A stretch of DNA of 64,000 nucleotides from a virus (taxonomy: Duplodnaviria > Heunggongvirae > Uroviricota > Caudoviricetes). The DNA is taken from IMG/VR virus record IMGVR_UViG_2639762987_000002; one strand, given 5' to 3'. This document shows positions 1 through 12,231 of the stretch, piece after piece; the stretch's first letter is position 1, and every line of letters begins with the position of its first letter. The notes under the pieces are model-generated. The model saw only the letters and a program-made list of their open reading frames with translations, did not search any database and was not told where the DNA came from. Made by a program: the position numbers and the translations under genes.

Positions 1-1
1 G

Positions 2-1579
2 GATCAATACGGCGATAACTGTGAAGTCTGCGGCGCGACATACAGCCCGACGGAACTGATCGAGCCGAAATCGGTAGTTTCTGGCGCTACGCCGGTAATG
101 CGTGATTCCGAACACTTCTTCTTTGATCTGCCTTCTTTCAGCGAAATGTTGCAGGCATGGACCCGCAGCGGTGCGTTGCAGGAGCAGGTGGCAAACAAAA
201 TGCAGGAGTGGTTTGAATCTGGCCTGCAACAGTGGGATATCTCCCGTGACGCACCTTACTTCGGTTTTGAAATTCCGAACGCACCGGGCAAATACTTCTA
301 CGTCTGGCTGGACGCGCCGATTGGCTACATGGGTTCCTTCAAGAATCTGTGCGACAAACGCGGCGACACTACCAGCTTCGACGAATACTGGAAGAAAGAC
401 TCCACCGCCGAGCTGTACCACTTCATCGGCAAAGATATCGTTTACTTCCACAGCCTGTTCTGGCCTGCCATGCTAGAAGGCAGCAACTTCCGCAAGCCGA
501 CCAACCTGTTTGTTCATGGCTATGTGACGGTGAACGGTGCGAAGATGTCCAAGTCTCGCGGCACCTTTATTAAAGCCAGCACCTGGCTGAATCATTTTGA
601 CGCTGACAGCCTGCGTTACTACTACACTGCGAAACTCTCTTCGCGCATTGATGATATCGATCTCAACCTGGAGGATTTCGTTCAGCGCGTGAATGCCGAT
701 ATCGTGAACAAAGTGGTGAATCTGGCGTCCCGTAACGCGGGCTTTATCAATAAGCGTTTTGACGGTGTGCTGGCAGGCGAACTGGCTGACCCGCAACTGT
801 ACAAAACCTTTACTGATGCCGCTGAAGTGATTGGCGAAGCATGGGAAAGCCGCGAATTTGGTAAAGCTATCCGTGAAATCATGGCACTGGCTGACCTGGC
901 TAACCGCTATGTCGATGAACAGGCTCCGTGGGTGGTGGCGAAGCAGGAAGGTCGCGATGCCGATCTGCAGGCGATTTGCTCTATGGGCATTAACCTGTTC
1001 CGCGTGCTGATGACGTACCTGAAACCGGTACTGCCAAAACTGACTGAACGTGCAGAGGCATTCCTCAATACGGAACTGACCTGGGATGGTATCCAGCAAC
1101 CGCTGTTGGGCCATAAAGTGAATCCGTTCAAAGCTCTGTATAACCGTATCGATATGAAGCAGGTTGAAGCACTGGTGGAAGCGTCTAAAGAAGAAGTCAA
1201 AGCCGCTGCCGCACCGGTAACTGGCCCGCTGGCAGACGATCCGATTCAGGAAACCATCACCTTTGACGACTTCGCCAAAGTTGACCTGCGCGTGGTACTG
1301 ATTGAAAACGCGGAGTTTGTCGAAGGTTCTGACAAACTGCTGCGCCTGACACTGGATCTCGGCGGAGAAAAACGTAATGTCTTCTCAGGCATTCGTTCCG
1401 CTTATCCAGATCCACAGGCACTGATTGGTCGTCACACCATTATGGTGGCTAACCTGGCACCGCGTAAAATGCGCTTCGGTATCTCCGAAGGCATGGTGAT
1501 GGCTGCTGGCCCTGGCGGAAAAGATATCTTCCTGTTAAGCCCGGATGCTGGTGCTAAACCAGGCCACCAAGTTAAGTAA
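2..1579 (+). CDS. metG: methionyl-tRNA synthetase, C-terminal ~526 codons (5'-truncated by window edge)
   Basis: Frame is open from the window start and in frame with the listed ORF 98..1579; translation [18 protein letters not shown]...KMSKSRGTF...GAKPGHQVK matches the class I MetRS zinc-knuckle, KMSKS motif and C-terminal tRNA-binding domain. Confidence 0.95.
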
Positions 1580-1601
1580 CTAAACAACCATTTTTCACAA
1601 T

Positions 1602-1626
1602 GCCCGGCAACACGCTGGGCATTTTC
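1602..1626 (+). terminator. Rho-independent terminator of metG
   Basis: Hairpin gcccggcaacacgctgggc followed by atttt, 23 nt after the metG stop. Confidence 0.6.
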
Positions 1627-1740
1627 ATATAGACACAATCCCTCCTGATTTACACAAGCCCTAAAACAATTTGTTTTCTACCTTTTGTTGATTGAGATAA
1701 TAAGCCACATAAGAAAACAACTTGTTTTGGAGTAGTTGAA

Positions 1741-2040
1741 ATGTTGAACATTACCCAAGCCTACCAGGTGGCATTGATCAGTTCATCTCATACATCAGAG
1801 GAAGATGCTCGCCGATTCATGATCGCAAGCAATGAGCTGGATTGGGTTTCACAAATTGATGGCGGTTGTATTGTTCACGCCGGGTTACAGAATGATGTCT
1901 GGAAAGACGACTTGCGTCGATATGGTATATCCGAAGGCGCGATTGCTAACATTCAGAAAGTACTTGATGTAGGCTTTGACTCTGTACATTTTGATTGTGG
2001 TGCGCCGGTCGTTGAAGGGCTTGAGTGCTGGAACTGGTAA
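1741..2040 (+). CDS. hypothetical early protein (99 aa)
   Basis: ORF with GGAG-type RBS; motif-1 palindrome 13 nt upstream. Confidence 0.55.
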   Translation: MLNITQAYQVALISSSHTSEEDARRFMIASNELDWVSQIDGGCIVHAGLQNDVWKDDLRRYGISEGAIANIQKVLDVGFDSVHFDCGAPVVEGLECWNW

Positions 2041-2085
2041 CAGATATTAAAGCATTGGTAGTTTGTTTTTAGGATTATCAAAGAA

Positions 2086-2820
2086 ATGAAAAAGTTGAAA
2101 AGTTTAGAAATCCCTGGGACTGGTTATAAATTCTTTATGGACAACGCGGAGTGTGCGCCTAACGCGTTGGAAAAAATACAAAGTCTTATCAACAGCCTTA
2201 CTGAAGAAGCGAAAGAACTGAAGAGCGAGGCGACAAAGGACAATACAGCTAAAATCCAATGCTTAAATCTCGTTTCTTATTGTTTATATCAAGTGTCCAA
2301 GACACTGATTAAAGGCAATATCTATTACGACGATGAAGACACCTCGACACCTGAAGAAAAAGATAGCGATGAAGAACTCTATGAAGATATCTCTACCAGT
2401 GCGGGTCATGCTGCCTTCGATGCTATGGGTGAATCGTCAGGCATCAGATCGTTTGTTGAACAGAACAATTCGACAATAATGATTGAGTACTGTGAACAAA
2501 CAAGCTCCAAGGCCATACATGTTCTTCACGATGTTGCTGCAGGGGTTCGCTGTGAGGCTGAAGCGGTCAGAAAAGATGTATTTGGTGCAGACAGTAATAC
2601 CGTGAAAGCGTTCATCAACAGTGCTCTGCTAAATTCTTACTCAAACCTTATCGTCAATGCGGCACTATGCGCGAATTCAGGTGAAGAACACATTGTCATA
2701 ACTGAAACCAAACATGAGCATCAACAGTCACCAACCATAGAAGAGGTAACTGCATTGGCTATCAAACAGGCGAGTGAAATTAGTGATGAAATTCTCTCTC
2801 TGCTAAACAAAACTATGTAA
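2086..2820 (+). CDS. hypothetical acidic early protein (244 aa)
   Basis: ORF; Asp/Glu-rich stretch (YYDDEDTSTPEEKDSDEELYED). Confidence 0.55.
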   Translation: MKKLKSLEIPGTGYKFFMDNAECAPNALEKIQSLINSLTEEAKELKSEATKDNTAKIQCLNLVSYCLYQVSKTLIKGNIYYDDEDTSTPEEKDSDEELYEDISTSAGHAAFDAMGESSGIRSFVEQNNSTIMIEYCEQTSSKAIHVLHDVAAGVRCEAEAVRKDVFGADSNTVKAFINSALLNSYSNLIVNAALCANSGEEHIVITETKHEHQQSPTIEEVTALAIKQASEISDEILSLLNKTM

Positions 2821-2930
2821 AACATTGATAATGGCGGTCACAATTTGATTCTTTTCTATAAGAATCCGTTGATCGCCACTACTCCCCTTCCATAGCTGCA
2901 ATCATATCTTTAAATATCAATAGGTTATGG

Positions 2931-3700
2931 TTGTTTATACAAATAAGAAAACAACTAAATAACAGATCAACGAAACGTCAACGCTTTCACCCGATTTGGT
3001 CTAAAAAATTGACGTTTTCACACATCACTTCTTATACCCGTAACTCTACGCAGCAGACAGCGCCACAGCGTCCAATTTTCACCACAGACGACCCAACACA
3101 CTACCAACAAAAACACACGCTCAAAATCGCTCCCGTTGCGTTACACAACCATATAAACAACTTATTTTCAGGCATAACAAAACAACTAAATAACACACAT
3201 GCCATTCCCAAAAACAACCAACCTCTTTATGGCAGGCTACCGAAAAGACCCACCTCTTCTCCCCAGGCTACCGGACAACCAACCTAACTTTCACAGGCAA
3301 TCCGAAAACATTCATACGCGCGATACCCACGACACGCCATTCCCCAAACAGCGAAGAAACACCAGAATCACTGAAACCCCAACGAAGCCTGTAACCGCAA
3401 GGATTCTCTCAATCCCAAAAGACACGAAACATAACAATCACGGGAAATGCCATTACCCAATACACGAATAACTACAAAAGCCTTTCACACACTCCAGACA
3501 AACAACTCAAACACAATAACGAAAGGAATCGCCCACCTGCCATTACTCCATACACGGAGAAGAACAATCACCAAAACGACGAGAACACCCCATAGAAGAA
3601 CCACCGCAAAACGAACGAAACCACATACACCGACAGAGAAAACAACACACCCAATTCACCAACAGAAATAGTCGCCGTATAGAACATTCTGGAAGGAGTG
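2931..3700. repeat. Non-coding CA-rich, G- and T-depleted region with four GCCATTMCC-type direct repeats
   Basis: Top strand roughly 40% A, 40% C, 10% G, 10% T by hand count of one 60-nt line; only low-complexity ORFs; repeats near 3200, 3337, 3448, 3539. Confidence 0.6.
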
Positions 3701-3870
3701 AGCATTAACGCCTATAGAGAGGTTGAGACAGATAAAACACAACATGTATAGCGAAGAAGCCAGGTATGTATAAGTGGGGAGGGAAGGAGGGGTGTCGCCT
3801 CCTTTTTCGTATTTATTCAACTCCTGATTTTATCCCCCCGTAACACCCCTACGGTCAGCCTTCGGTCCAT

Positions 3871-4012
3871 ACAGGGAAAAGGCTGCATCCCGCTACAGAA
3901 ACGGCTGGGTTGCCTTCGGGGAACGGCTGGAGGTTTTCAGGGAAACGGTCGAGTTACCTGTGTGGATTTCGGGAAAAGGCTCGATGCCGGTTCAGGAACG
4001 GTGGCGTACCGG
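3871..4012. repeat. Six tandem iteron-like direct repeats, ~22 bp period, core GGGAAA(A/C)GG(C/T)
   Basis: acagggaaaaggctg / acagaaacggctgg / ttcggggaacggctgg / ttcagggaaacggtcg / tttcgggaaaaggctcg / ttcaggaacggtggcg read directly. Confidence 0.6.
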
Positions 4013-4363
4013 TATAGCGAGAGGAAGAGTTGCGGCTACCCACCTGTAATGTGCGGGAAGAAGAGAGGCGCTCACGTAGGCGGACTTGCTTACCGCTGGA
4101 TTCCCTCTGAATGCCCAGCTACAGCGTAATTGTGCCAGACAGCCAACGGGTCACAATCGATTTCAGTAGGTTTTCGGGGAGAGGATTATTCTGCCCACCA
4201 GCCACTTTCGGCCACTAAATCAGAATAATGTAAAAAGTGTACTCGGTGCTGAACCTGAAAACTCACTGCCAAAACCACATTCACCGGAATAAAATCCTTT
4301 TTCGCCTGTGTGTTATTGCGATAATAACACCATCAAGAAAACATGTTGTTTAAGGATTGCTTT

Positions 4364-4693
4364 ATGTTTGCAAATATCGACATCAACCAAATCAAGAAAA
4401 TGACTCAAAAAGAGTTTGACCAGTTTTATGAGCTGGAAGGTTGGTCTTCCACTCTGATTAATTCAAGATGGGTGCTGGAACTGATGACTCGTGATGACGC
4501 ACCTGCTTTGATGATCAGCGACCTGGGTGAAGATGCTGACTTTATGGATATGAGCGAATTTTGTGTGGACACATACAACCGCAGCCAGAAGTACTACTTC
4601 ACATGCGATAGCGAAAATGACGTGATTTCTAAGGTCTATCTTCACCTCGTCCAGCATTGGGACGTTCAGGAGTTTCTTGAAGTATTCGAGTAA
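4364..4693 (+). CDS. hypothetical early protein (109 aa)
   Basis: ORF; start moved to ATG 4364 after RBS aaggat; the listed 4343 start lies inside the motif-1 palindrome. Confidence 0.55.
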   Translation: MFANIDINQIKKMTQKEFDQFYELEGWSSTLINSRWVLELMTRDDAPALMISDLGEDADFMDMSEFCVDTYNRSQKYYFTCDSENDVISKVYLHLVQHWDVQEFLEVFE

Positions 4694-4846
4694 CCCCAAC
4701 CAAAGCCAGCATTGCTGGCTTAATTTCTCTATAGCCGCAGGGAAGAACCTGCATATAGCTCATGCACCTGATCAATATGCTTTGTAGCCGTTTTCTTACT
4801 GGTATTATTTACGCCATTGAGAAAACAAGTTGTTTACGGAGTTGTG

Positions 4847-5158
4847 ATGAAAAAATCATTGGTTCTTGGTCTGGACAAAGACCAGAAGAGAAAAGAGAAG
4901 CCTGCGCTGGTTGCTCAATTAACTTTGCTGGACATCGTTGCCAATGGAACCTCTATTCGTCTGTTCCGTGAAACAGCGGTGTCTTTCGATAAAAACACCT
5001 TTACTCGTTATGTAATGAATGTTCGTCGCCAGCGTGGAAAAGGCTGGATGGCATATCAAAGAATGTGGCCGGAACATCAGCTCGAACTGGCTTTGATGGA
5101 AGTTAACCGCGTGGCCCAGCAAGAAATTCAGAGAGCATCAGTGATGGCAATAGCCTGA
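4847..5158 (+). CDS. hypothetical early protein (103 aa)
   Basis: ORF; ATG 4847 follows motif-1 and RBS acggag. Confidence 0.55.
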   Translation: MKKSLVLGLDKDQKRKEKPALVAQLTLLDIVANGTSIRLFRETAVSFDKNTFTRYVMNVRRQRGKGWMAYQRMWPEHQLELALMEVNRVAQQEIQRASVMAIA

Positions 5159-5194
5159 TAATGTGCAAGTGGTAATTAGTCGACAGTACGACAG

Positions 5195-5221
5195 CCCCGC
5201 CATCCTTACGGGGTTTTTTTG
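5195..5221 (+). terminator. Rho-independent terminator
   Basis: Hairpin ccccgccatccttacgggg followed by a run of T. Confidence 0.7.
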
Positions 5222-5284
5222 TATTGTAAGTACATACTTATGATCATAGAATATCAAAATAACCAATACACTATGGAGGGTGAA

Positions 5285-5680
5285 ATGACCGTTAAACGCG
5301 AAAAACTGACAGTTGATGTTTACTATGCCTCTGAAACTGCCGAAGGTAAGAATGTGGCAAAAATCACCGTTGTTACGTACAACACCGAAACTGGTGCCGA
5401 AGTCCAGGCCAGTACGATCGTGCGTAAAGGTGATGCCTCCGGCGGCGAGTACGCGACTCAATACCAGTCTATTCTCGATGCAACTGACCCGCTGCTGCTG
5501 AAAATCGAGAACTACTTCCGCCAGGTTGATGAAGAGGTGTTTGAAACCATGATGAGTATGGTTAATTCCGTATTCGCCTCCAGCCTGAACACCAGCACCA
5601 CCTGGATTGGCCAGTATGGTCTGCGCATTACCTCCGGCATTCCTGCTGACACCTTAATCCCTGAAAGCGTATTCGCTTAA
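5285..5680 (+). CDS. hypothetical protein (131 aa)
   Basis: ORF; ATG 5285 preceded by RBS ggaggg; motif-2 palindrome taagtacatactta at 5228-5241. Confidence 0.6.
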   Translation: MTVKREKLTVDVYYASETAEGKNVAKITVVTYNTETGAEVQASTIVRKGDASGGEYATQYQSILDATDPLLLKIENYFRQVDEEVFETMMSMVNSVFASSLNTSTTWIGQYGLRITSGIPADTLIPESVFA

Positions 5681-5691
5681 TCCTCTTTAAA

Positions 5692-5717
5692 TGGCGCGTA
5701 AACCGCGCCATTTTCTT
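5692..5717 (+). terminator. Rho-independent terminator
   Basis: Hairpin tggcgcgtaaaccgcgcca followed by ttttctt. Confidence 0.7.
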
Positions 5718-5797
5718 ATACCCGATAACAATTTGTTTTCTGCCTTATCTGATTTGTGAAAATGATTTCACTGAAGCAAGTTAATAAGGAAACCATC

Positions 5798-6172
5798 ATG
5801 GGACTTGATATCTATATCGAGACACAGCCTAAAAACGATCTGAATAACGAGGCATCCAGAAAGCAGGTTGCTTACTTCCGTAAGTTCAATGCGCTCGTTG
5901 GGTGGATGGAGCGCAACGTAGGTGAAGTCGAAAATTGTGAGCTTTTAGAATTAACGATGAATGACATTTGTTTTCTGAAGGCTCATTTGATGCACATAAA
6001 CGAAAGTAATTGCGAAGAGTACTTGCCTACCCGGGAAGGTTTTTTCTTCGGCAGTCAGGAGTACGATGAAGGTTACTGGCATGATGTGGGGGAGTTGAAA
6101 GAGCTTGTGGAAGATCTGATTAAGAACCACGACTTTCACAATAACAGACTGACCTTCTGCGCCTGGTGGTAA
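5798..6172 (+). CDS. hypothetical protein (124 aa; alternative start GTG 5756)
   Basis: ORF; ATG 5798 has RBS aagga at 7-nt spacing; motif-1 at 5725-5740. Confidence 0.5.
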   Translation: MGLDIYIETQPKNDLNNEASRKQVAYFRKFNALVGWMERNVGEVENCELLELTMNDICFLKAHLMHINESNCEEYLPTREGFFFGSQEYDEGYWHDVGELKELVEDLIKNHDFHNNRLTFCAWW

Positions 6173-6174
6173 AT

Positions 6175-6318
6175 ATGGGCGATTTCAAGAAAACCCTGAA
6201 GGAAAGAGCCGAGATGGTCAGAAAGCAAAACGCCTCTTCTGTCATCAGATACGCAAGGCAGTTTAGTCGCAACAACAAATCAGTTGAGGAAAAGATCCTT
6301 AGCGTAATCGGTCGATAA
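6175..6318 (+). CDS. small hypothetical protein (47 aa)
   Basis: Short ORF hand-translated MGDFKKTLKERAEMVRKQNAS...; starts 2 nt after previous stop with ggtgg upstream; below the ORF-track cutoff. Confidence 0.3.
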   Translation: MGDFKKTLKERAEMVRKQNASSVIRYARQFSRNNKSVEEKILSVIGR

Positions 6319-6522
6319 TTATTAAGGCCATCAGCATTGGTGGCCTTAAATGACCATCCTGTTTCCCGTAGGCTAAAAACACCAACCTCTTACCTCCAGG
6401 CAACCGACAAACCCACCTGTTCCCGTCCGGCTACCGCAACTTTCCACTTTGACGCCTTATTCGTACAACGATAATTAACACCAACAAGAAAACAATTTGT
6501 TATTTACGATAAGGAATTAATC

Positions 6523-7005
6523 ATGAATTTTATCGCTACTGTAAACGCACCCGCACATGGCAATATCGCTGTAACGTTCTCTGACATTGAAAAACGAGTA
6601 CTTGGTGCATGGCGCGACAATGAGACGGTAGAACTGTCAGCACAAGAAAAATGCATTATTGCACGCGACATCATTGGCAATCGTCGTTACTCGCGGGTAT
6701 TTGAGAAAGCGTATGTGGTAAATTCTGGATTCGGAACGTTCGTCTTTCCGGTGCGCTCCGGGCGATTCTGCCAGTCCAAGCTGATTGAGTTCGCTACGCA
6801 GATTTCTGTCTGGATTAAAACTCAATCGTCGTTCAAATTTTCCGACGATGAAGCAGTATCGCAGGGGATGCGGATCGCCAACAATGCAATTAAATGCAAA
6901 AACATTACGTATACCGCTGGCGTTGATACATGGAAACTGTTTTGCGCTAACTTTATGCTGAATGTATACGCAAGCAACCGCATCCACATCCTTGATGGCG
7001 TGTAA
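6523..7005 (+). CDS. hypothetical protein (160 aa)
   Basis: ORF with RBS aaggaa; motif-1 at 6485-6502. Confidence 0.6.
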   Translation: MNFIATVNAPAHGNIAVTFSDIEKRVLGAWRDNETVELSAQEKCIIARDIIGNRRYSRVFEKAYVVNSGFGTFVFPVRSGRFCQSKLIEFATQISVWIKTQSSFKFSDDEAVSQGMRIANNAIKCKNITYTAGVDTWKLFCANFMLNVYASNRIHILDGV

Positions 7006-7012
7006 CTGAGAA

Positions 7013-7036
7013 GAGGGCCAGAAACGGCCCTTTCTC
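7013..7036 (+). terminator. Rho-independent terminator
   Basis: Hairpin agggccagaaacggccct followed by ttctct. Confidence 0.55.
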
Positions 7037-7050
7037 TATAGCCACCAGCT

Positions 7051-7141
7051 GCCGCAGGGAAATTTTCAGAAACGGCAAGGAACGCATTCATGAGCCGATG
7101 GGAAACGGCCAGGATTTTTTCGGGAAACGGCTGCATTCGCC
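7051..7141. repeat. Second array of GGGAAACGGC-type direct repeats (3-4 copies)
   Basis: gcagggaaatttt / cagaaacggcaagg / gatgggaaacggccagg / ttcgggaaacggctgc; same family as 3871-4012. Confidence 0.55.
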
Positions 7142-7259
7142 TTTATGTAGAAAAAACATCGGGAAGCTGGTGGAATCCAACCAGCGGTTGTCGGACAGGT
7201 GAGCGGGGAAAATCATGATGACTTTCGTCGCCTGAGACATCCAGATTTCTTTCGTAGCG

Positions 7260-7315
7260 TAATCACATATGTGATTAAGTGGTGTGATTATGTGAAAAAT
7301 CACGCGCACATAATA
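7260..7315. promoter_or_regulatory. Operator-like nested palindromes, including a perfect 18-bp palindrome
   Basis: taatcacatatgtgatta (7260-7277) is its own reverse complement; followed by gtgattatgtg...cacataat inverted repeats. Confidence 0.5.
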
Positions 7316-7620
7316 CGCGAGCGGATACGGAACAAAACAAAATGCCGATCCGCGCCGACAAATAAACGCGGATCATAAAGCAAGACTAAAAGCCAATGAT
7401 TAACCATACTCTATAGCGCAATATAACGCGTTTTAAGCGCGTTAATGTGTTAAGTAATGGGTATGTACTGGCAAGGATATAAAAGCGCGTCTATGGCGTT
7501 ATTTTGGCGCTTATTTTTATGTTGTTGGAGTGAGTTAAAGACAATAAAAACGCGCCATCATTGGCGCGTTATGGTAGGTGTATTGGAAACGAAAAAAGCG
7601 CCCATAGTGGGCGCTCGATT

Positions 7621-7851
7621 TTATTTGTGTAAACTGATTTTAAATCCCATTTCTACAAACGCTTTTAACATTAAAAATATATCAGCGTCGTTCACGTCTG
7701 CTTTTTTTCGCTCCTGGTCGCTCAATAAGTCAATTTTGCGCGTCGTTTCATCTATAAGCTCGACTGCGCGCCCAGCGTAACCAGCGATCCCAGCGATGCG
7801 ATTAACATAATATTCATTATGGACGTTAACGCCAGCGATAAGAACAAACAT
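7621..7851 (-). CDS. hypothetical protein (76 aa)
   Basis: ORF in AT-rich minus-strand block; two tandem hairpin plus T-run terminators downstream on the minus strand (7548-7576, 7594-7622). Confidence 0.45.
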   Translation of the reverse strand: MFVLIAGVNVHNEYYVNRIAGIAGYAGRAVELIDETTRKIDLLSDQERKKADVNDADIFLMLKAFVEMGFKISLHK

Positions 7852-7872
7852 GATTAAGCTCCTTAAAAAAAA

Positions 7873-8121
7873 TTAAATAGAATTTTGAAGTTTTCCGATT
7901 AATGCGCTTAAACGTAAGTATTCACGTTTGCGCTTGCAATCTCGCTTGCTGTTAAGCAAATCAGAAAACGTAAAATTTAATTGGTCGCGTTGCGCGATCA
8001 AATCATCGATTAATTCCAGTTTATAAGCGCGATACTTTGCGCGATACTTTGCGCGGATCTTGTCATAGCTGACCATTTTTAAAGCTCCTTTAAAGCGCCC
8101 ATAGTGGGCGCTTGATTCCAT
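7873..8121 (-). CDS. hypothetical protein (82 aa; alternative internal start)
   Basis: ORF; contains a tandem 12-nt duplication encoding AKYRAKYRA. Confidence 0.4.
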   Translation of the reverse strand: MESSAHYGRFKGALKMVSYDKIRAKYRAKYRAYKLELIDDLIAQRDQLNFTFSDLLNSKRDCKRKREYLRLSALIGKLQNSI

Positions 8122-8124
8122 TAA

Positions 8125-8775
8125 TTACGCTTTAAAAGCATCAGCTAAATAATTGTAGAAATCATTCTTGATAAAGCGATATTGCTGTGTACCAGCTTTT
8201 GCGCTTCCCATTCCTTTGACTTTCTCAACAAGTCCAAGACGTTCGCAAAGATTGATCAACTGGTTGGCTTGAGTATAGCCAGCGTCCAATTTAATTTCGC
8301 ACGCTTTTTTAGCTTCATTCATTAAATCGAAAACAGCGCCATTGGTGAACGTGTCGATCTCGTCGTTAATCATATCGATTAAAGCGAATACACGAGATCC
8401 TGACATATCAGCGACGGAATAAACGCATTTACCAGCTTTAATGGATTTAACCAGATAAACCAGTTTTTCCAGTGAATAACTATTAGTCATAGCATCACGG
8501 AAAAATACTTCTGGCGCTTGTTTGCTTGCTTTAATCGCATAGTAGAAAACAGAGCATAATTTTTCGTCTTCTACTGCGTTTACGACGTTGTTGATGAAGT
8601 AAGCAAGTTTAGTGGTCGCAGCTTGCATATTTGCTTTGTCTGCTTTAGTGTGCGTACCATTTTTATAATGTTCGTTGTATGTTTGAGTTGCCAGATCTGC
8701 TTTTTCGCGCAGTTCATCGGATACAATGGAAGCAGCTTCAACGATGGATTTTTTAGAAATGATAATGTTAGCCAT
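8125..8775 (-). CDS. hypothetical protein (216 aa)
   Basis: ORF; no motif recognised. Confidence 0.55.
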   Translation of the reverse strand: MANIIISKKSIVEAASIVSDELREKADLATQTYNEHYKNGTHTKADKANMQAATTKLAYFINNVVNAVEDEKLCSVFYYAIKASKQAPEVFFRDAMTNSYSLEKLVYLVKSIKAGKCVYSVADMSGSRVFALIDMINDEIDTFTNGAVFDLMNEAKKACEIKLDAGYTQANQLINLCERLGLVEKVKGMGSAKAGTQQYRFIKNDFYNYLADAFKA

Positions 8776-9058
8776 GATGATTTTTCCTTATGTAAATTTA
8801 AAATTTATTGTCGTTAGCGTCTTCGCTTTCGACGAGTTCAATTATCGATACGCGAAAAAAGATTGCAAGTGTTTTTTTAAAATTTTTTGCAGGGATGAAA
8901 GTCCTAGAAATAAAAGCGAGATCGTCGAAGGTGTTCCCTAAATAAATAATCGATTCCGGCTTTCGACCTTATATATATTTAGGTTATTTGATTTATAGAT
9001 ATAAAGAAGTGATGTGAAAAATAATAACCGGACTTAGCCGGTTATTAACCTTATAGAT

Positions 9059-9367
9059 TTATTGAACAGACTCTACAGCCTTACGATTGGTGTCAAATAG
9101 CGCATCAACGAACTGTGCCGATGACTCGCTAGATTCGCAATCCAACATTGCCCGTTCTTCATTTGCCACTTTCTTACACAGTTCCACATTCTCGCCTATC
9201 GCTTTTCCTGCTTTTACGGCTGCCGAAAATTGATACATGCAAACTGATACATTCTGAGACGTTGAGCACACGTCATTCATCAGCGACTGAATGACAGGCT
9301 TATAGTCCATTGCATTTGCCGCAACTGAGCAAAGTAAAAATAATGGTGGTAACAATATCGATTTCAT
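9059..9367 (-). CDS. secreted Cys-rich protein with signal peptide (102 aa)
   Basis: N-terminus MKSILLPPLFLLCSVAANA is a classical Sec signal; six Cys in the mature part; terminator hairpin downstream on the minus strand (9029-9052). Confidence 0.6.
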   Translation of the reverse strand: MKSILLPPLFLLCSVAANAMDYKPVIQSLMNDVCSTSQNVSVCMYQFSAAVKAGKAIGENVELCKKVANEERAMLDCESSESSAQFVDALFDTNRKAVESVQ

Positions 9368-9370
9368 AAC

Positions 9371-9895
9371 TCAAAAAGGCAAAATTCGTTCAACCCAATC
9401 GAACAAAACAACTATTTTTCTACCGTTCTCGACACGTAGTGTAACCTGACAAGCATCTGCGCCTGCTGACACCCCCTCAATTTCACGGCCATCCGCCATG
9501 TACACCCTTATAGATTTGTTTGCTTTGTAGGCTTGGTTGCAAATTGCAAAAAAATCGCGGCGTGATGGCCGATTATCGACATAATCAGGGTGAACTGTTA
9601 GTCGACCTTTGAAATCGTGAGCGATACTGTCAACCACACCTGATTCAATTGTACTAATGCGTTCAAGTGGGAGCCTTATACGATTTTCTTTGTCAAAAGG
9701 GGCTGGGCAAAGGTCAACTTTGTTACGAGATGGCATGAGGCCATAAACGTACATGCAAAACGCCTGGCCATCTTCGAGAGTGACCCTTACAGGAATTTGT
9801 TCTCTGCGCCAGAACATCAGTAGTTTTTCAACGTTAGTGTAATCTCGCGGCCAGAGTTCAGCTTGGATACCGTAGGTAATATCTTTGGTTGTCAT
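9371..9895 (-). CDS. hypothetical protein (174 aa; the listed ORF extends to 9973)
   Basis: ORF; start at internal Met (MTTKDITYG) avoids a 74-nt overlap with the upstream gene. Confidence 0.5.
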   Translation of the reverse strand: MTTKDITYGIQAELWPRDYTNVEKLLMFWRREQIPVRVTLEDGQAFCMYVYGLMPSRNKVDLCPAPFDKENRIRLPLERISTIESGVVDSIAHDFKGRLTVHPDYVDNRPSRRDFFAICNQAYKANKSIRVYMADGREIEGVSAGADACQVTLRVENGRKIVVLFDWVERILPF

Positions 9896-9899
9896 GTCA

Positions 9900-10364
9900 T
9901 CACAGAGTTGTTGGCAGAATGTCGATGTCACCAGAATTGCTGGTGAACACCCTGAACGCTTTTGTGTCTCCATTCTTCAGAGTCGTTTCTCGCTCTTGAC
10001 GAGCGTGGTTTAGAGCACATAAACCTGCACCTTCAAGAGATGCACCCACAATTAATTCTCCGGCATTTAAATGGAAAGTCGCTTTTTCGCCTGTAGCCAG
10101 TTTTGCGACAGTTTCGCCGTTGATGAAAATGGAAGCATCACATCCAGCTCCTACAAAACCTGTGTCTCTCATTACCACCAACGTAGCTGGCGCTGCGCTT
10201 TGATACTTGAACACTTTGGCCTGCGGTGCTGGTTTGGCGTCATGGATTGATATTGGGCGTGATTGGCACGCGGTAAGCATCAACACTGGTAACGTTAGTA
10301 GAGGGAGAAGCGAGTATTTCATGATAGTTTTAGAACAGAAAGTGAACAGTATGGGAGACTTCAT
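9900..10364 (-). CDS. lipoprotein (154 aa)
   Basis: Lipobox LTAC after hydrophobic stretch LLPLLTLPVLM; strong RBS agggag before ATG at 10364. Confidence 0.6.
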   Translation of the reverse strand: MKSPILFTFCSKTIMKYSLLPLLTLPVLMLTACQSRPISIHDAKPAPQAKVFKYQSAAPATLVVMRDTGFVGAGCDASIFINGETVAKLATGEKATFHLNAGELIVGASLEGAGLCALNHARQERETTLKNGDTKAFRVFTSNSGDIDILPTTL

Positions 10365-10390
10365 CTTTGTCTCCCTAATTGATAGCGTGA

Positions 10391-10669
10391 TTATTTTAAT
10401 CTGCTTAATAGCGTTTCGAGATCTTCCTTTGTCATATTAGAGTTCTCATAGATACGCATGATTTTCTCACGAGTCTTAGCGGAAGCCCCGACAGAAGATA
10501 TAACCTTGTCAAAGTCGGCCATTGTCAATTGTTCCAGAATGGTATTTATGACTTCAGCCTTAGACATTTTGATATTTTTTTCTTTTAGTTTCACTTGAAA
10601 CTTTCCAAGTTTGTCATTGGCCTTATCAGACAATGCTACCTGACAATAAGTTGTTTTCTTTTCGCTCAT
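10391..10669 (-). CDS. hypothetical protein (92 aa)
   Basis: ORF directly downstream of the helicase gene. Confidence 0.5.
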   Translation of the reverse strand: MSEKKTTYCQVALSDKANDKLGKFQVKLKEKNIKMSKAEVINTILEQLTMADFDKVISSVGASAKTREKIMRIYENSNMTKEDLETLLSRLK

Positions 10670-10671
10670 AA

Positions 10672-12231
10672 CTAATCTCGTTTCAGAACTCCAAAATCGA
10701 ATGCTCCATCAATAGGCAATACACCTTCTGCAAAGCCAGGTGTGGTGTCGATGATGTGTTTTCGCTCATAAGAGTGAGACAACAGGTATTTGTTGCTAAT
10801 GTCAATGAAATCAGTGATAAAACACACGTTTGCCTGATTTTTTTTGGCTCGTAAGCCACGACCGACACGCTGCCTCATTTCAACTTCTGCTTTCCCACCA
10901 CCAGCAAGAATGACCGCACCAACGCTTGGCACATCAACACCGACATCCAGAATAGTCGAGCCTATTAAAACATCTATTTCTCCAGACGCTAAACTGTTCA
11001 GCTTTGCTTGCCTTGTCGCCTGGTTAGATTCCCCATAGATGAAGTCAACTCTAAGGCCGGACTCTTTCATCATTTCCATCAGGATTTGCCCGTGGCGTTT
11101 AAGACGAACCAGAGTCATACAATTGAGAGAATGTTGCTTATAGAGCAATGCTTCGCGAACAATGGCCTCGTTACGTCCCAAATTATACACGATCCCCAAC
11201 TGATAAGCCTTTTGGTAGGCGGTGCTCATACCAACTCTAAAATTGAGGTGTTTGTTGGCAAGTTCGGCCTTGATTCTGGCCTCGTCTGGCTTGTAGGCAA
11301 CTTTATGATAAAGAAAGTACGGCTTTGCCAGAATGCCTCGATCAATCAGGTACTTTTCTGTGACTTTAATTTCAATTCGCCCGGCCACCGCCATCAGGCG
11401 CATGTTGGCTTCCGTCGAATCCTTCATGAACGGCGTGGCTGTAAGCGCCAGACGATAGTCTGCGTTCACACATAATCTGGCGATGTCATAGAAATTTGAG
11501 CCTGAAGACTCATGCGCCTCTTCCAGAATAAGAAGAGAGACACTTGAAAGGAAGCGTTTCACCAACTCCCGACGTTTGAGGTGGTAGCTTTTCTTATCTG
11601 GTGTTGCATCGCGTGGTGGTTCTTCGAGGAAACTTGCAAGAGTTTGAACTGTAGCGACGTTGATATGTCGTGATACCTGGAACTCACCCGAGCCAATGAC
11701 TCCAACCTTTTGGTCTTTTAACCACGGTTCGCCATTTTCGGCGCGGTAGTCGATGGATCTCTGGAAGTTTTCGGCCATTTGAAACATCAGAACAGAGCGG
11801 GTTGTTAAAAATAATGTCATTCGACCGATACGTGCAGCTGCTTTGCAGGCAACGTTAGATTTCCCGCCACCAGTAGCGATCTGCGCAATCATCATTCCCT
11901 CTCGAACCAGTGTTTCCACAGTCTGATCCTGATACGCATAATCAGGATTGTATGGGAATGGGTTAACCGCAGGATTTGGTTTACCAAGCGCCGGGGCTTT
12001 GTCTTTGCGGATATGAACACATTTGATGCCCGCCTTGTTCAAGTTCGCCGCTACAGGCTTGGCAAAGCCAGCAGGGAACGAGTTTTTACTCCAGTTGAAC
12101 ATCGTGCTTGTGCCCTTCCAGTCGCCAGTCTCGACTTCGTAGCTCAACATCTGTTGCACCATTTGCTTTACCTTGTCATCTGCGCCAGAAATAAGCGCAT
12201 TAACTGCGTTAGATACAATCCGAACAGTCAT
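10672..12231 (-). CDS. superfamily 2 DNA helicase (519 aa)
   Basis: Walker A TGGGKSN, motif II LILEEAHE (DEAH-like), C-terminal helicase region QRVGRGLR. Confidence 0.8.
   Translation of the reverse strand: MTVRIVSNAVNALISGADDKVKQMVQQMLSYEVETGDWKGTSTMFNWSKNSFPAGFAKPVAANLNKAGIKCVHIRKDKAPALGKPNPAVNPFPYNPDYAYQDQTVETLVREGMMIAQIATGGGKSNVACKAAARIGRMTLFLTTRSVLMFQMAENFQRSIDYRAENGEPWLKDQKVGVIGSGEFQVSRHINVATVQTLASFLEEPPRDATPDKKSYHLKRRELVKRFLSSVSLLILEEAHESSGSNFYDIARLCVNADYRLALTATPFMKDSTEANMRLMAVAGRIEIKVTEKYLIDRGILAKPYFLYHKVAYKPDEARIKAELANKHLNFRVGMSTAYQKAYQLGIVYNLGRNEAIVREALLYKQHSLNCMTLVRLKRHGQILMEMMKESGLRVDFIYGESNQATRQAKLNSLASGEIDVLIGSTILDVGVDVPSVGAVILAGGGKAEVEMRQRVGRGLRAKKNQANVCFITDFIDISNKYLLSHSYERKHIIDTTPGFAEGVLPIDGAFDFGVLKRD

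What the first reader, a model, noticed from the sequence alone, without database searches (positions are those of the whole stretch)
2931..3700. A ~0.75-kb strongly strand-skewed CA-rich, G- and T-depleted non-coding region with internal repeats
The top strand is roughly 40% A and 40% C with about 10% G and 10% T in the line I counted, and is dense in ACA trinucleotides. It yields only low-complexity ORFs and carries four spaced repeats of GCCATTMCCCAAWACA. A transcript from this strand would be almost unstructured, suggesting a long non-coding RNA or RNA decoy, or a protein-binding array.
Basis: seen in the sequence. Interest (0 to 1): 0.6.

Follow-up and report, generated by a model that had tools for sequence, protein, structure and literature searches.

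The report
Structure-free A/C-rich non-coding RNA element
A conserved, unannotated stretch of about 0.7-1 kb in SSU5-type phage-plasmids is non-coding, its top strand cannot fold, and it most likely yields a long single-stranded regulatory RNA whose partner and role are untested.

Summary
Window 3000-3690 is A 40%, C 33%, G 12-13%, T 14-15%. It is the most extreme A+C tract in the 64 kb (0.74 against 0.50 ± 0.03).

It lies in a 1.5-kb gene-free gap of an SSU5/pHCM2-type phage-plasmid. The element occurs in 839 plasmid records and in 246 of 5,426 complete E. coli genomes, never on a chromosome.

It is non-coding: substitutions show no codon periodicity and indels shift the frame. It is under purifying selection. 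Its skew and layout persist in relatives with no detectable sequence similarity in the body.

Only the + strand is structure-free (four least-folded of 850 windows). Conserved hairpins bracket it, and they are more stable on the + strand.

Three motif families repeat inside it: GCCATTAC... (four copies here, three to six in relatives), 31-nt C-rich units (three copies), and the A-rich half of the early-gene leader motif (three copies against 0.1 expected).

ACA, GGA, Hfq-type and GcvB-target motifs are not enriched, and Rfam has no match.

Best reading, at moderate confidence: a long single-stranded RNA platform or decoy. Rivals are a giant Rho-loading insulator and a DNA-level repeat array. 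No transcript has been shown.

The parts
2832..2878 (+). 5' boundary hairpin. Outer stem is TGGCGGTCA/TGATCGCCA, with an inner stem and the invariant loop TTTCTATAAG (2853-2862).
   Evidence: It folds at -13 to -20 kcal/mol in all lineages, with different arm sequences: GATTCTT/AAGAATC, GGATTT/GAGTCC, ACCTCTC/GAGAGGT. The + strand is more stable in 6 of 7 distinct sequences. The left arm is missing in two lineages where the cargo junction cuts into it.
2945..2964 (+). A 20-mer, AAGAAAACAACTAAATAACA, nearly invariant across the aligned lineages (19 of 20 columns). It is copy 1 of the A-rich half of the early-gene leader motif.
   Evidence: Nearly invariant across 9 aligned homologues. It is repeated at 3174-3195. 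RASAAAACAA occurs 3 times against 0.11 expected. In the deep relative L038 the site is a full palindrome.
2973..3037 (+). Inverted repeat AAACGTCAA (2973-2981) / TTGACGTTT (3009-3017), overlapping a promoter-like TTGACG (3009-3014)-N17-TTATAC (3032-3037).
   Evidence: The blocks are conserved in all lineages, and L038 has TTGACA-N17-TTATAC. It is not called by the consensus promoter scan because the -10 is weak. Promoter function is inferred.
3000..3690 (+). The A/C-rich, G/T-poor, structure-free body. This is the finding itself.
   Evidence: Non-coding. Within-clade diversity is 0.025, against 0.035-0.078 at third codon positions of neighbouring genes.
3154..3195 (+). Leader/operator-like TAAACAACTTATTTT (3154-3168), plus a second copy of the 20-mer (3174-3195).
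3212..3303 (+). Three tandem 31-nt C-rich units, (A)ACCMACCTCTT..CAGGCTACCG.
   Evidence: family D3. This is the most conserved block of the body. A paralogous array lies at 6348-6453.
3201..3565 (+). Four dispersed direct copies of GCCATTMC-YYCAWAYRCGGAGAAGAAC, starting at 3201, 3336, 3449 and 3539.
   Evidence: Every lineage has 3-6 copies, including L038. The other GCCATTMC hits in the window lie in unrelated contexts that do not share the extended motif.
3636..3645 (+). Third copy of the leader half-motif, GAGAAAACAA.
3781..3808 (+). 3' boundary hairpin: a purine-rich arm, a pyrimidine-rich arm and a T-run. In this lineage it looks like an intrinsic terminator.
   Evidence: Terminator scan. 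z = -3.6. A hairpin is kept in 9 lineages and is always more stable on the + strand. 86.7% of cells pair, but covariation is not decisive. It resembles the hairpin after gene 6523-7005 (read from the sequence).
3872..4012 (+). Array of six ~22-bp G-rich, iteron-like units (cagGGAAAaGGCTGG). It lies next to the finding, not inside it.
   Evidence: There is no convincing RNA covariation. A second array lies at about 7020-7140.
4320..4363 (+). Promoter/leader module of the next gene (GATAAT, then ACACCATCAAGAAAACATGTTGTTTAAGGA, then ATG). It marks the right end of the gene-free gap.
   Evidence: The PHROG match starts at residue 8.
6348..6453 (+). Paralogous C-rich unit array, upstream of the promoter of the 160-aa gene 6523-7005.
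9374..9895 (-). Candidate partner (inferred only): an FljA-family protein predicted to be two Hfq-like Sm domains in tandem.
   Evidence: PF03614 E = 2.5e-84 and a weak Hfq hit. The model has two helix-plus-five-strand repeats. The top PDB neighbours are almost all Hfq, TM 0.7-0.86. [quoted passage not shown]

Best explanation
The tract is the body of a conserved non-coding element of SSU5/pHCM2-type phage-plasmids that works as + strand RNA. It is transcribed with the surrounding + strand early/accessory genes. Transcription comes either by read-through or from its own conserved TTGAC(G/A)-N17-TTATAC element.

The resulting RNA would be about 0.8-1 kb. Its ends are closed by conserved hairpins (2832-2878 and 3781-3808). 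Its 650-700-nt body has been selected to be unable to base-pair, because A and C cannot pair with each other.

On this open backbone the RNA displays repeated short motifs. They are GCCAUUAC... (four copies here, three to six in relatives), C-rich 31-nt units (three copies), and the A-rich half of the leader motif found in the 5' UTRs of the element's own early genes (three copies).

The most likely mode of action is a single-stranded binding platform or decoy. It would titrate a factor that otherwise acts on the early-gene leaders. The best candidate is the plasmid's own tandem-Sm (Hfq-like) FljA-family translational repressor.

Shown here: non-coding status, conservation, strand-specific lack of structure, repeats and hairpins. 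Inferred: transcription, trans action and the identity of the ligand.
For: Family and spread. The window is an SSU5-like phage-plasmid. The element is single-copy, found only on plasmids or phages, and almost never annotated.

Non-coding. Substitutions are spread evenly over the three codon phases. Indels have lengths such as 1, 23, 1, 1, 21. No open frame is shared between lineages.

Constraint. Within-clade diversity is 0.025, against 0.035-0.078 at third codon positions nearby. The skew is kept at variable columns (63% A+C) as well as invariant ones (74.5%). It is also kept in L038, which has no blastn similarity in the body.

Strand specificity. The + strand holds the four least stable of 850 windows (-27 to -36 kcal/mol, against -80 ± 13). 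The - strand is ordinary. Both flanking hairpins are more stable on the + strand, in 6 of 7 and 9 of 9 lineages. All neighbouring genes are on the + strand. The scan finds a terminator-like site on the + strand only.

Repeats beyond composition. The 21-mer occurs 3 times against 0.03 expected. RASAAAACAA occurs 3 times against 0.11 expected, P < 0.0005. Three of its 10 occurrences in the window lie here, and at least four others lie in early-gene leaders.

A nearby RNA-binding candidate. The FljA-family protein has Hfq-like folds. Its family represses translation of fliC mRNA.
Against: No expression data exist, and no paper on the element was found.

The candidate promoter has a weak -10 and fails the consensus scan.

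The known sponge signatures are absent: GGA, ARN, AANAANAA and GcvB-target motifs are not enriched.

The C-rich units also occur upstream of a promoter, in a divergent intergenic region in SSU5. That placement suggests DNA-level sites.

The leader motif is a DNA palindrome, so it could be an ordinary operator.

Covariation in the hairpins is not statistically decisive. The left arm of the 5' hairpin is missing in two lineages.

The resemblance to the fliC 5' UTR is not significant.

An untranslated C-rich RNA should be cut short by Rho unless it is protected.

IS insertions in or next to the element are tolerated in some plasmids.
Confidence: 0.35

Rival explanations
1. The tract is a cis-acting transcriptional insulator or attenuator. 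It serves as a very long Rho-loading (rut) leader. Rho binds the untranslated, unstructured, C>G RNA and catches RNA polymerase at the G-rich pause and hairpin at 3700-3810. This stops read-through from the variable cargo genes into the iteron-like array and the separately controlled early genes. A phage antiterminator may relieve it.
For: C/G is 212/86 over 3050-3700. The C>=2G stretch of 430 nt is the longest in the window. The RNA is untranslated and unstructured. No terminator lies between the upstream gene and the element. The variable cargo abuts the left border in every lineage. The body is followed at once by the most structured, G-rich segment and a hairpin. The layout recalls lambda nutR/tR1, a hairpin next to rut sites (my own knowledge).
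Against: A rut site needs only composition and about 80 nt. That does not explain 650-900 nt of conserved length, sequence-level purifying selection or the repeated conserved motifs. U depletion is not needed for Rho binding. The total of YC dinucleotides (91 in 651 nt, 14%) is only slightly above the 12.5% expected for equal base frequencies. No boxA/boxB-like element could be established.
Confidence: 0.25
2. The tract is a DNA-level cis element, such as a lytic origin, an incompatibility or partition site, or a regulator sink. The repeats are binding sites for proteins on double-stranded DNA. The skew is a by-product of many asymmetric direct repeats, or reflects a need for an unstructured displaced strand.
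For: Several families of direct repeats are present. They include a regular 22-bp G-rich array next door. The same two arrays flank a second locus 3.1 kb away. In SSU5 the C-units sit upstream of a promoter in a divergent intergenic region. The G-array shows no RNA covariation. The region is non-coding and conserved.
Against: Binding to double-stranded DNA does not explain a strand-specific composition that also holds between the repeats (variable columns 63% A+C). It also does not explain hairpins that depend on G·U pairs. There are no DnaA boxes and no AT-rich unwinding element. The plasmid replicon is about 32 kb away and has unrelated iterons, GTATGCTGTCAGCGGT. The neighbouring 160-aa protein has no DNA-binding or Rep-like fold. 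IS insertions are tolerated for plasmid maintenance.
Confidence: 0.2
3. The tract has no function of its own. It would be decayed copies of duplicated early promoter/leader modules, shaped by a transcription- or replication-linked mutation bias.
For: The body contains degenerate copies of the promoter/leader module in which T and G positions are replaced, for example GATAAT to GATACC and a palindrome to a half-site. Some plasmids tolerate IS insertion or truncation.
Against: Diversity is below that of neighbouring third codon positions. Layout, length and skew are conserved across Escherichia, Salmonella, Klebsiella, Enterobacter, Citrobacter and Buttiauxella, and in a deep relative. No other part of the 64 kb shows such a bias, although most of it is transcribed in the same direction.
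Confidence: 0.07

Closest known systems
Protein-sponge RNAs (CsrB/CsrC/RsmZ for CsrA; CrcZ for Hfq/Crc)
   Same: A non-coding RNA of several hundred nucleotides that presents multiple copies of a short motif to titrate an RNA-binding regulator. Here the motifs are repeated and conserved, and an Hfq-like protein is encoded about 6 kb away.
   Different: CsrB-type GGA-in-loop motifs and CrcZ-type AANAANAA motifs are not enriched. The motifs sit on a backbone that cannot pair, not in hairpin loops. The element is plasmid- or phage-borne. No binding has been shown.
Rho utilisation (rut) regions of Rho-dependent terminators, e.g. lambda tR1 next to nutR
   Same: Untranslated, unstructured RNA with C well above G, followed by a pause or termination zone. 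A hairpin sits at the upstream edge.
   Different: It is five to ten times longer than a typical rut site. It is U-depleted, constrained at the sequence level and carries conserved repeats. No boxA/boxB was found. Rho dependence is untested.
Phage-encoded anti-sRNAs and sponges of GcvB (AgvB, SroC)
   Same: Phage-borne C/A-rich RNA that could pair with G/U-rich seed regions.
   Different: The canonical GcvB target word CACAACA occurs 0 times, against 1.0 expected. The element is ten times longer. It has no similarity to host chromosomes.
Iteron arrays of plasmid and phage origins or incompatibility loci (P1 incA, P4 ori/crr)
   Same: Direct repeats in arrays, duplicated at a second locus about 3 kb away.
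   Different: This applies to the adjacent G-rich array rather than to the A/C-rich body. No initiator gene, DnaA box or AT-rich unwinding element is present.

Membership tests
Any Rfam family | Match to a curated covariance model | tested here: not met
   Scanning 1-12000 at E <= 1 gave no hit in 2800-4350.
Protein-coding gene | A reading frame conserved between homologues, with substitutions concentrated at the third codon position | tested here: not met
   Phase counts are 69/64/76, 90/96/86 and 70/72/58, and the indels shift the frame. Open frames differ between lineages and lack start codons. PGAP annotates nothing.
Rho-dependent terminator (rut region) | C>G, G-poor stretch of at least ~80 nt of untranslated RNA | tested here: met
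   C 212 and G 86 over 3050-3700. The C>=2G stretch 2996-3425 is the longest in the window.
Rho-dependent terminator (rut region) | Little secondary structure in the RNA | tested here: met
   The four least stable of 850 windows lie here.
Rho-dependent terminator (rut region) | Termination that depends on Rho (sensitive to bicyclomycin) | not testable with these tools
   Needs Term-seq or RNA-seq with and without bicyclomycin.
CsrA sponge (CsrB/CsrC type) | Dense GGA / ANGGA motifs, about one per 17-20 nt, mostly in hairpin loops | tested here: not met
   GGA 7 against 6.0 expected. A.GGA 4 against 2.5 expected. That is about one per 90 nt.
Hfq/Crc sponge (CrcZ type) or Hfq distal-face ligand | Enriched AANAANAA or (ARN)n tracts | tested here: not met
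   AANAANAA 3 against 2.4 expected. ARN runs of three or more: 4 against 4.2 expected.
GcvB sponge or target mimic (SroC/AgvB type) | C/A-rich target word complementary to GcvB R1 (CACAACA type) | tested here: not met
   CACAACA 0 against 1.0 expected. ACAACA 1 against 2.6 expected. The GcvB target word is taken from memory.
MazF (ACA) decoy | ACA enriched beyond composition | tested here: not met
   45 observed, 42.1 ± 3.5 expected.
Iteron-type replication origin or inc locus | Regularly spaced 17-22-bp direct repeats | tested here: inconclusive
   Met by the adjacent G-rich array 3872-4012, with spacing 21-23 bp. The repeats inside the A/C-rich body are spaced irregularly, 90-135 bp apart.
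Iteron-type replication origin or inc locus | Repeats match those of a cognate initiator gene; DnaA boxes or an AT-rich unwinding element nearby | tested here: not met
   The RepB iterons GTATGCTGTCAGCGGT are unrelated and about 32 kb away. No DnaA box lies in the region. GC content is 41-51%.
Intrinsic terminator (the 3' hairpin) | GC-rich hairpin followed by a U-tract | tested here: met
   In the window, 10 pairs followed by TTTTTCGTATTTATT. The SSU5, Enterobacter and Citrobacter lineages keep the hairpin, but their U-tail is weak.
Structured long ncRNA with long-range pairing | Folding better than shuffled sequence, or specific pairing between the C-rich units and the G-rich 3' part | tested here: not met
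   z = -0.33. Duplex energies are no better than shuffles, P 0.26-0.97 in 8 lineages.

The most novel reading that the evidence does not exclude
The A/C-rich RNA is a dedicated leader-mimic decoy for the phage-plasmid's own Hfq-like protein. That protein is a tandem-Sm member of the FljA family, encoded at 9374-9895 on the - strand. In this reading the protein represses the early genes at the RNA level by binding the AAGAAAACAA-N-UUGUUUU motif in their 5' UTRs. The structure-free RNA carries G/U-stripped copies of that motif plus the GCCAUUAC repeats, and titrates the protein. Together they would form an RNA-protein switch controlling early gene expression, and perhaps host flagellin, in a plasmid family carried by about 4.5% of complete E. 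coli genomes.
Probability: 0.15. Interest if true: 0.85.

Novelty: new variant of a known kind. Interest (0 to 1): 0.62.

Why it matters
SSU5/pHCM2-type phage-plasmids are common in clinical Enterobacteriaceae. This search found them in 839 PLSDB records and in 246 of 5,426 complete E. coli genomes, and they carry resistance and accessory genes. Their regulation is essentially unstudied.

This 1.5-kb gap is their largest conserved non-coding region, and no annotation pipeline marks it. If the tract is a long RNA built to be structure-free, it would add a new design to bacterial regulatory RNAs: binding motifs shown on a backbone that cannot pair, rather than in hairpin loops.

With the neighbouring Hfq-like FljA-family protein, it would give a directly testable RNA-protein circuit for the choice between plasmid and phage lifestyle. 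If it is instead a giant Rho-loading insulator, it shows how mobile elements shield their control regions from transcription of swappable cargo.

Tried and rejected
1. Coding on either strand. Rejected: no codon periodicity, frameshifting indels, no shared ORF.

2. Known RNA families. No match.

3. MazF/ACA decoy, CsrA sponge, Hfq ARN or CrcZ-type sponge, GcvB target mimic. None of the motifs exceeds dinucleotide-shuffle expectation.

4. Long-range pairing, or an attenuator formed between the C-rich units and the G-rich 3' part. No better than shuffles in 8 lineages.

5. A structured RNA in the G-rich array. The consensus fold is weak and covariation is minimal.

6. The plasmid replicon or an incA-like locus. 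RepB and its 16 iterons are elsewhere and unrelated. There are no DnaA boxes.

7. The 160-aa neighbour as the array-binding initiator. The model is confident, but it has no PDB neighbour and no DNA-binding fold.

8. Mimicry of host sequences. No chromosomal match in 5,426 E. coli genomes.

9. Resemblance of the repeat to the fliC 5' UTR (shared ACCCAATAC). Not significant: local score P = 0.85, shared 8-mers P = 0.10.

10. Trans complementarity to other parts of the window. Only the paralogous array and the leader motifs were found.

11. Scan of reference genomes with the hairpin-loop pattern. Almost all hits were chance matches. Only two Kluyvera contigs look genuine, judged from the host genus alone.

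12. Literature searches for the element, SSU5 or pHCM2 non-coding RNAs, and Rho or GcvB decoys. Nothing relevant. One 2026 preprint on phage-plasmid copy number could not be opened.

Full report
**What the window is.** The window is part of an SSU5/pHCM2-type phage-plasmid of E. coli. The region 2821-3830 is 99% identical to about 110-kb plasmids and 96-98% identical to Escherichia phages Cyrano, CMS-2020a and PhiR41_1. It is 71-74% identical to Salmonella phage SSU5 and to Klebsiella phage-plasmids. The first ORF (98-1579) is the 3' part of a plasmid-borne metG. In the RefSeq record, nothing is annotated between the 244-aa gene ending at window 2820 and the next gene. That leaves a gene-free gap of about 1.5 kb (2821-4342), and the same gap is present in every homologue examined.

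**Checking the observation.** The tract is real.
- The core 3000-3650 is A 39.9%, C 33.0%, G 12.0%, T 15.1%.
- The 600-nt A+C maximum is 0.742, against a mean of 0.502 (sd 0.033). It is the only such outlier in 64 kb.
- The rest of the + strand has G above C, so the local sign of the GC skew is reversed.
- The four GCCATTMC repeats sit at 3201, 3336, 3449 and 3539. The extended motif is far above chance.
- ACA is frequent, but only as much as the composition predicts.
- The skewed body begins near 3000 rather than 2931.

**Non-coding but constrained.** Between lineages that are 58-74% identical over the body, mismatches fall equally on the three codon phases, and the indels shift the frame. 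Stop-free stretches differ between lineages and lack start codons.

The tract is nevertheless not drifting. Among 26 distinct E. coli-clade sequences its diversity is 0.025, against 0.035-0.078 at third codon positions of neighbouring genes. The A+C excess holds at variable alignment columns (63%) as well as invariant ones (74.5%).

SSU5, Klebsiella, Enterobacter, Citrobacter and Buttiauxella elements keep A+C at 0.66-0.75. One deep relative, L038, shares only 51% identity in a neighbouring protein and shows no blastn similarity in the body. It still has the same gap, the same order of landmarks and 59-70% A+C. So the skew itself is conserved.

**Evidence for a single-strand, + strand role.**
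- A and C cannot pair, so this composition removes secondary structure as effectively as any could.
- The + strand RNA of 3050-3812 folds at only -115.7 kcal/mol, no better than shuffles.
- In a 300-nt scan of both strands of the whole window, the four least stable of 850 windows are + strand 3001-3750 (-27 to -36, against -80 ± 13). The - strand of the same DNA is ordinary.
- The body is bracketed by two conserved hairpins.
  - The 5' hairpin (2832-2878) keeps an invariant loop, UUUCUAUAAG, while its arms differ in sequence between lineages but stay complementary.
  - The 3' hairpin (3781-3808) is terminator-like in this lineage.
  - Both are more stable on the + strand because they use G·U pairs, in 6 of 7 and 9 of 9 lineages.
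  - Formal covariation in the 3' hairpin is not decisive, because a purine arm can pair with a pyrimidine arm in several registers.
- All flanking genes are on the + strand.
- A conserved TTGAC(G/A)-N17-TTATAC element at 3009-3037 is a possible promoter, but its -10 is weak and the consensus scan does not call it.

**Internal anatomy.** Three motif families recur on the open backbone.
- A roughly 27-nt motif, GCCATTAC-YYCAWAYRCGGAGAAGAAC, is present in 3-6 direct copies in every lineage, including L038. Outside the element the core word occurs only in unrelated contexts.
- Three tandem 31-nt C-rich units (3212-3303) form the best conserved block.
- The A-rich half of a leader motif is the third family. 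The sequence AAAACAA-N-TTGTTTT occurs 14 times in the window against 0.9 expected. At the early genes it lies between a GATAAT -10 box and the ribosome-binding site. Its A-rich half, RASAAAACAA, occurs three times inside the element (2945, 3176, 3636) against 0.11 expected. That is 3 of only 10 occurrences in 64 kb. In L038 these sites are full palindromes. In most lineages the G/T-containing half has been replaced.

**Neighbouring arrays.** Just after the 3' hairpin lies an array of six ~22-bp G-rich units, GGAAAaGGCTGG. It shows no convincing RNA covariation and looks iteron-like. Both the C-rich units and the G-rich units recur 3.1 kb downstream. There they flank a 160-aa gene whose 3' hairpin resembles the element's own. 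So the A/C-rich body occupies the 'payload' position of a gene-like module. The complementarity between the C-rich and G-rich parts is explained by composition alone.

**Candidate partner.** The gene at 9374-9895 (- strand) is annotated as a transcriptional regulator. It belongs to the FljA family (PF03614, E = 2.5e-84) and also gives a weak Hfq hit. Its model consists of two helix-plus-five-strand repeats. Its top PDB neighbours are almost all Hfq (probability 1.00, TM 0.7-0.86, rmsd 1.1-2 Å). FljA proteins block translation of fliC mRNA (PMC2652032).

From established knowledge, Hfq-like rings bind A-rich and U-rich single strands. The leader motif has exactly such halves. This makes an RNA-level circuit plausible, but nothing here shows binding. 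A resemblance between the repeat and the E. coli fliC leader is not significant.

**Weighing the explanations.**
- *Single-stranded RNA platform or decoy (0.35).* This accounts best for a body that cannot pair, caps at both ends, repeated conserved motifs and sequence-level constraint.
- *Very long Rho-loading insulator between swappable cargo and the control region (0.25).* The C>=2G stretch is the longest in the window and the RNA is untranslated. But a rut site needs neither this length, nor repeats, nor U depletion.
- *DNA-level repeat array, meaning origin, inc/par site or regulator sink (0.20).* This fits the adjacent arrays. It does not explain the strand-specific composition between repeats or the G·U-dependent hairpins. 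The plasmid replicon and its iterons are elsewhere and there are no DnaA boxes.
- *Decay products (0.07).* The conservation data argue against this.

**Novelty.** No Rfam family, no annotation and no paper covers the element. It does not meet the defining features of CsrB-, CrcZ- or GcvB-sponge classes. I file it as a new variant of known kinds (sponge-like or rut-like RNA elements), with function unproven.

Noticed in passing
window 9374-9895 (- strand): The phage-plasmid's 'transcriptional regulator' belongs to the FljA family (PF03614). It is predicted to be two Hfq-like Sm domains in tandem, with no helix-turn-helix. Its top PDB neighbours are almost all Hfq. This suggests an RNA-binding translational repressor rather than a DNA-binding one.
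   Followed up: partly
window 1663, 1714, 4338, 4822, 5725, 6489, 15604, 15629, 45751, 48681 and others: The motif AAAACAA-N-TTGTTTT occurs 14 times against 0.9 expected. Where its context was examined (1714, 4338, 4822, 6489, 45751), it sits between a GATAAT -10 box and the ribosome-binding site of a + strand gene. It is either a DNA operator or an RNA leader element of an early regulon.
   Followed up: partly
window 3872-4012 and about 7020-7140: Two arrays of ~22-bp G-rich, iteron-like units (GGAAAaGGCTGG) lie 3.1 kb apart. They are conserved across Escherichia, Salmonella, Klebsiella and a deep relative. The binding protein is unknown.
   Followed up: partly
window 6348-6453: A paralogous array of the 31-nt C-rich units lies upstream of the promoter of the 160-aa gene. 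It is conserved in SSU5 and Klebsiella.
   Followed up: partly
window 6523-7005 (+ strand): A 160-aa protein (phrog_1641), found only on contigs consistent with SSU5-like phage-plasmids. Its structure model is confident (pLDDT 90.6), yet Foldseek finds no PDB neighbour at E <= 0.001. It may have a new fold.
   Followed up: partly
window 98-1579, and upstream in homologous records: The plasmid carries full-length metG (methionyl-tRNA synthetase) and apbC, next to an S24 peptidase gene. This cargo is specific to the E. coli lineage. Other lineages carry different genes at the same junction, such as a GIY-YIG nuclease, DUF1380 or a 400-aa ORF.
   Followed up: no
window 4197-4204, 7043-7050, 7166-7173: Chi octamers (GCTGGTGG or its complement) lie next to both G-rich arrays. 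Their orientation is not conserved in L038, where the octamer is on the top strand.
   Followed up: no
L013:3799-5554 (record NZ_CP070135.1, outside the window): The RepB-family replicon has a P1/RepFIB-like layout. About five GTATGCTGTCAGCGGT iterons overlap the 5' end of the annotated repB gene (3801-5015) and eleven follow it.
   Followed up: yes
H38/H83 (NZ_CP083480.1), L008:3563-4776, L011:~3620: Some plasmids carry IS1 inside the element, IS3 just after the 3' hairpin, or an IS-truncated copy on a large non-phage Klebsiella plasmid. The element is therefore not essential for plasmid maintenance.
   Followed up: partly
window 7542-7608: A weak, sub-threshold Rfam match to Hrs1 (24 bits, against a gathering score of 56). 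By eye the sequence contains GC-rich hairpins followed by T-runs. It is probably a chance match to terminator-like hairpins.
   Followed up: no
record NZ_CP070135.1, 36382-36972 and 58333-66695: The phage-plasmid encodes its own RNase HI, RecA, a 5'-3' exonuclease and a split DnaE interrupted by an HNH endonuclease gene.
   Followed up: no
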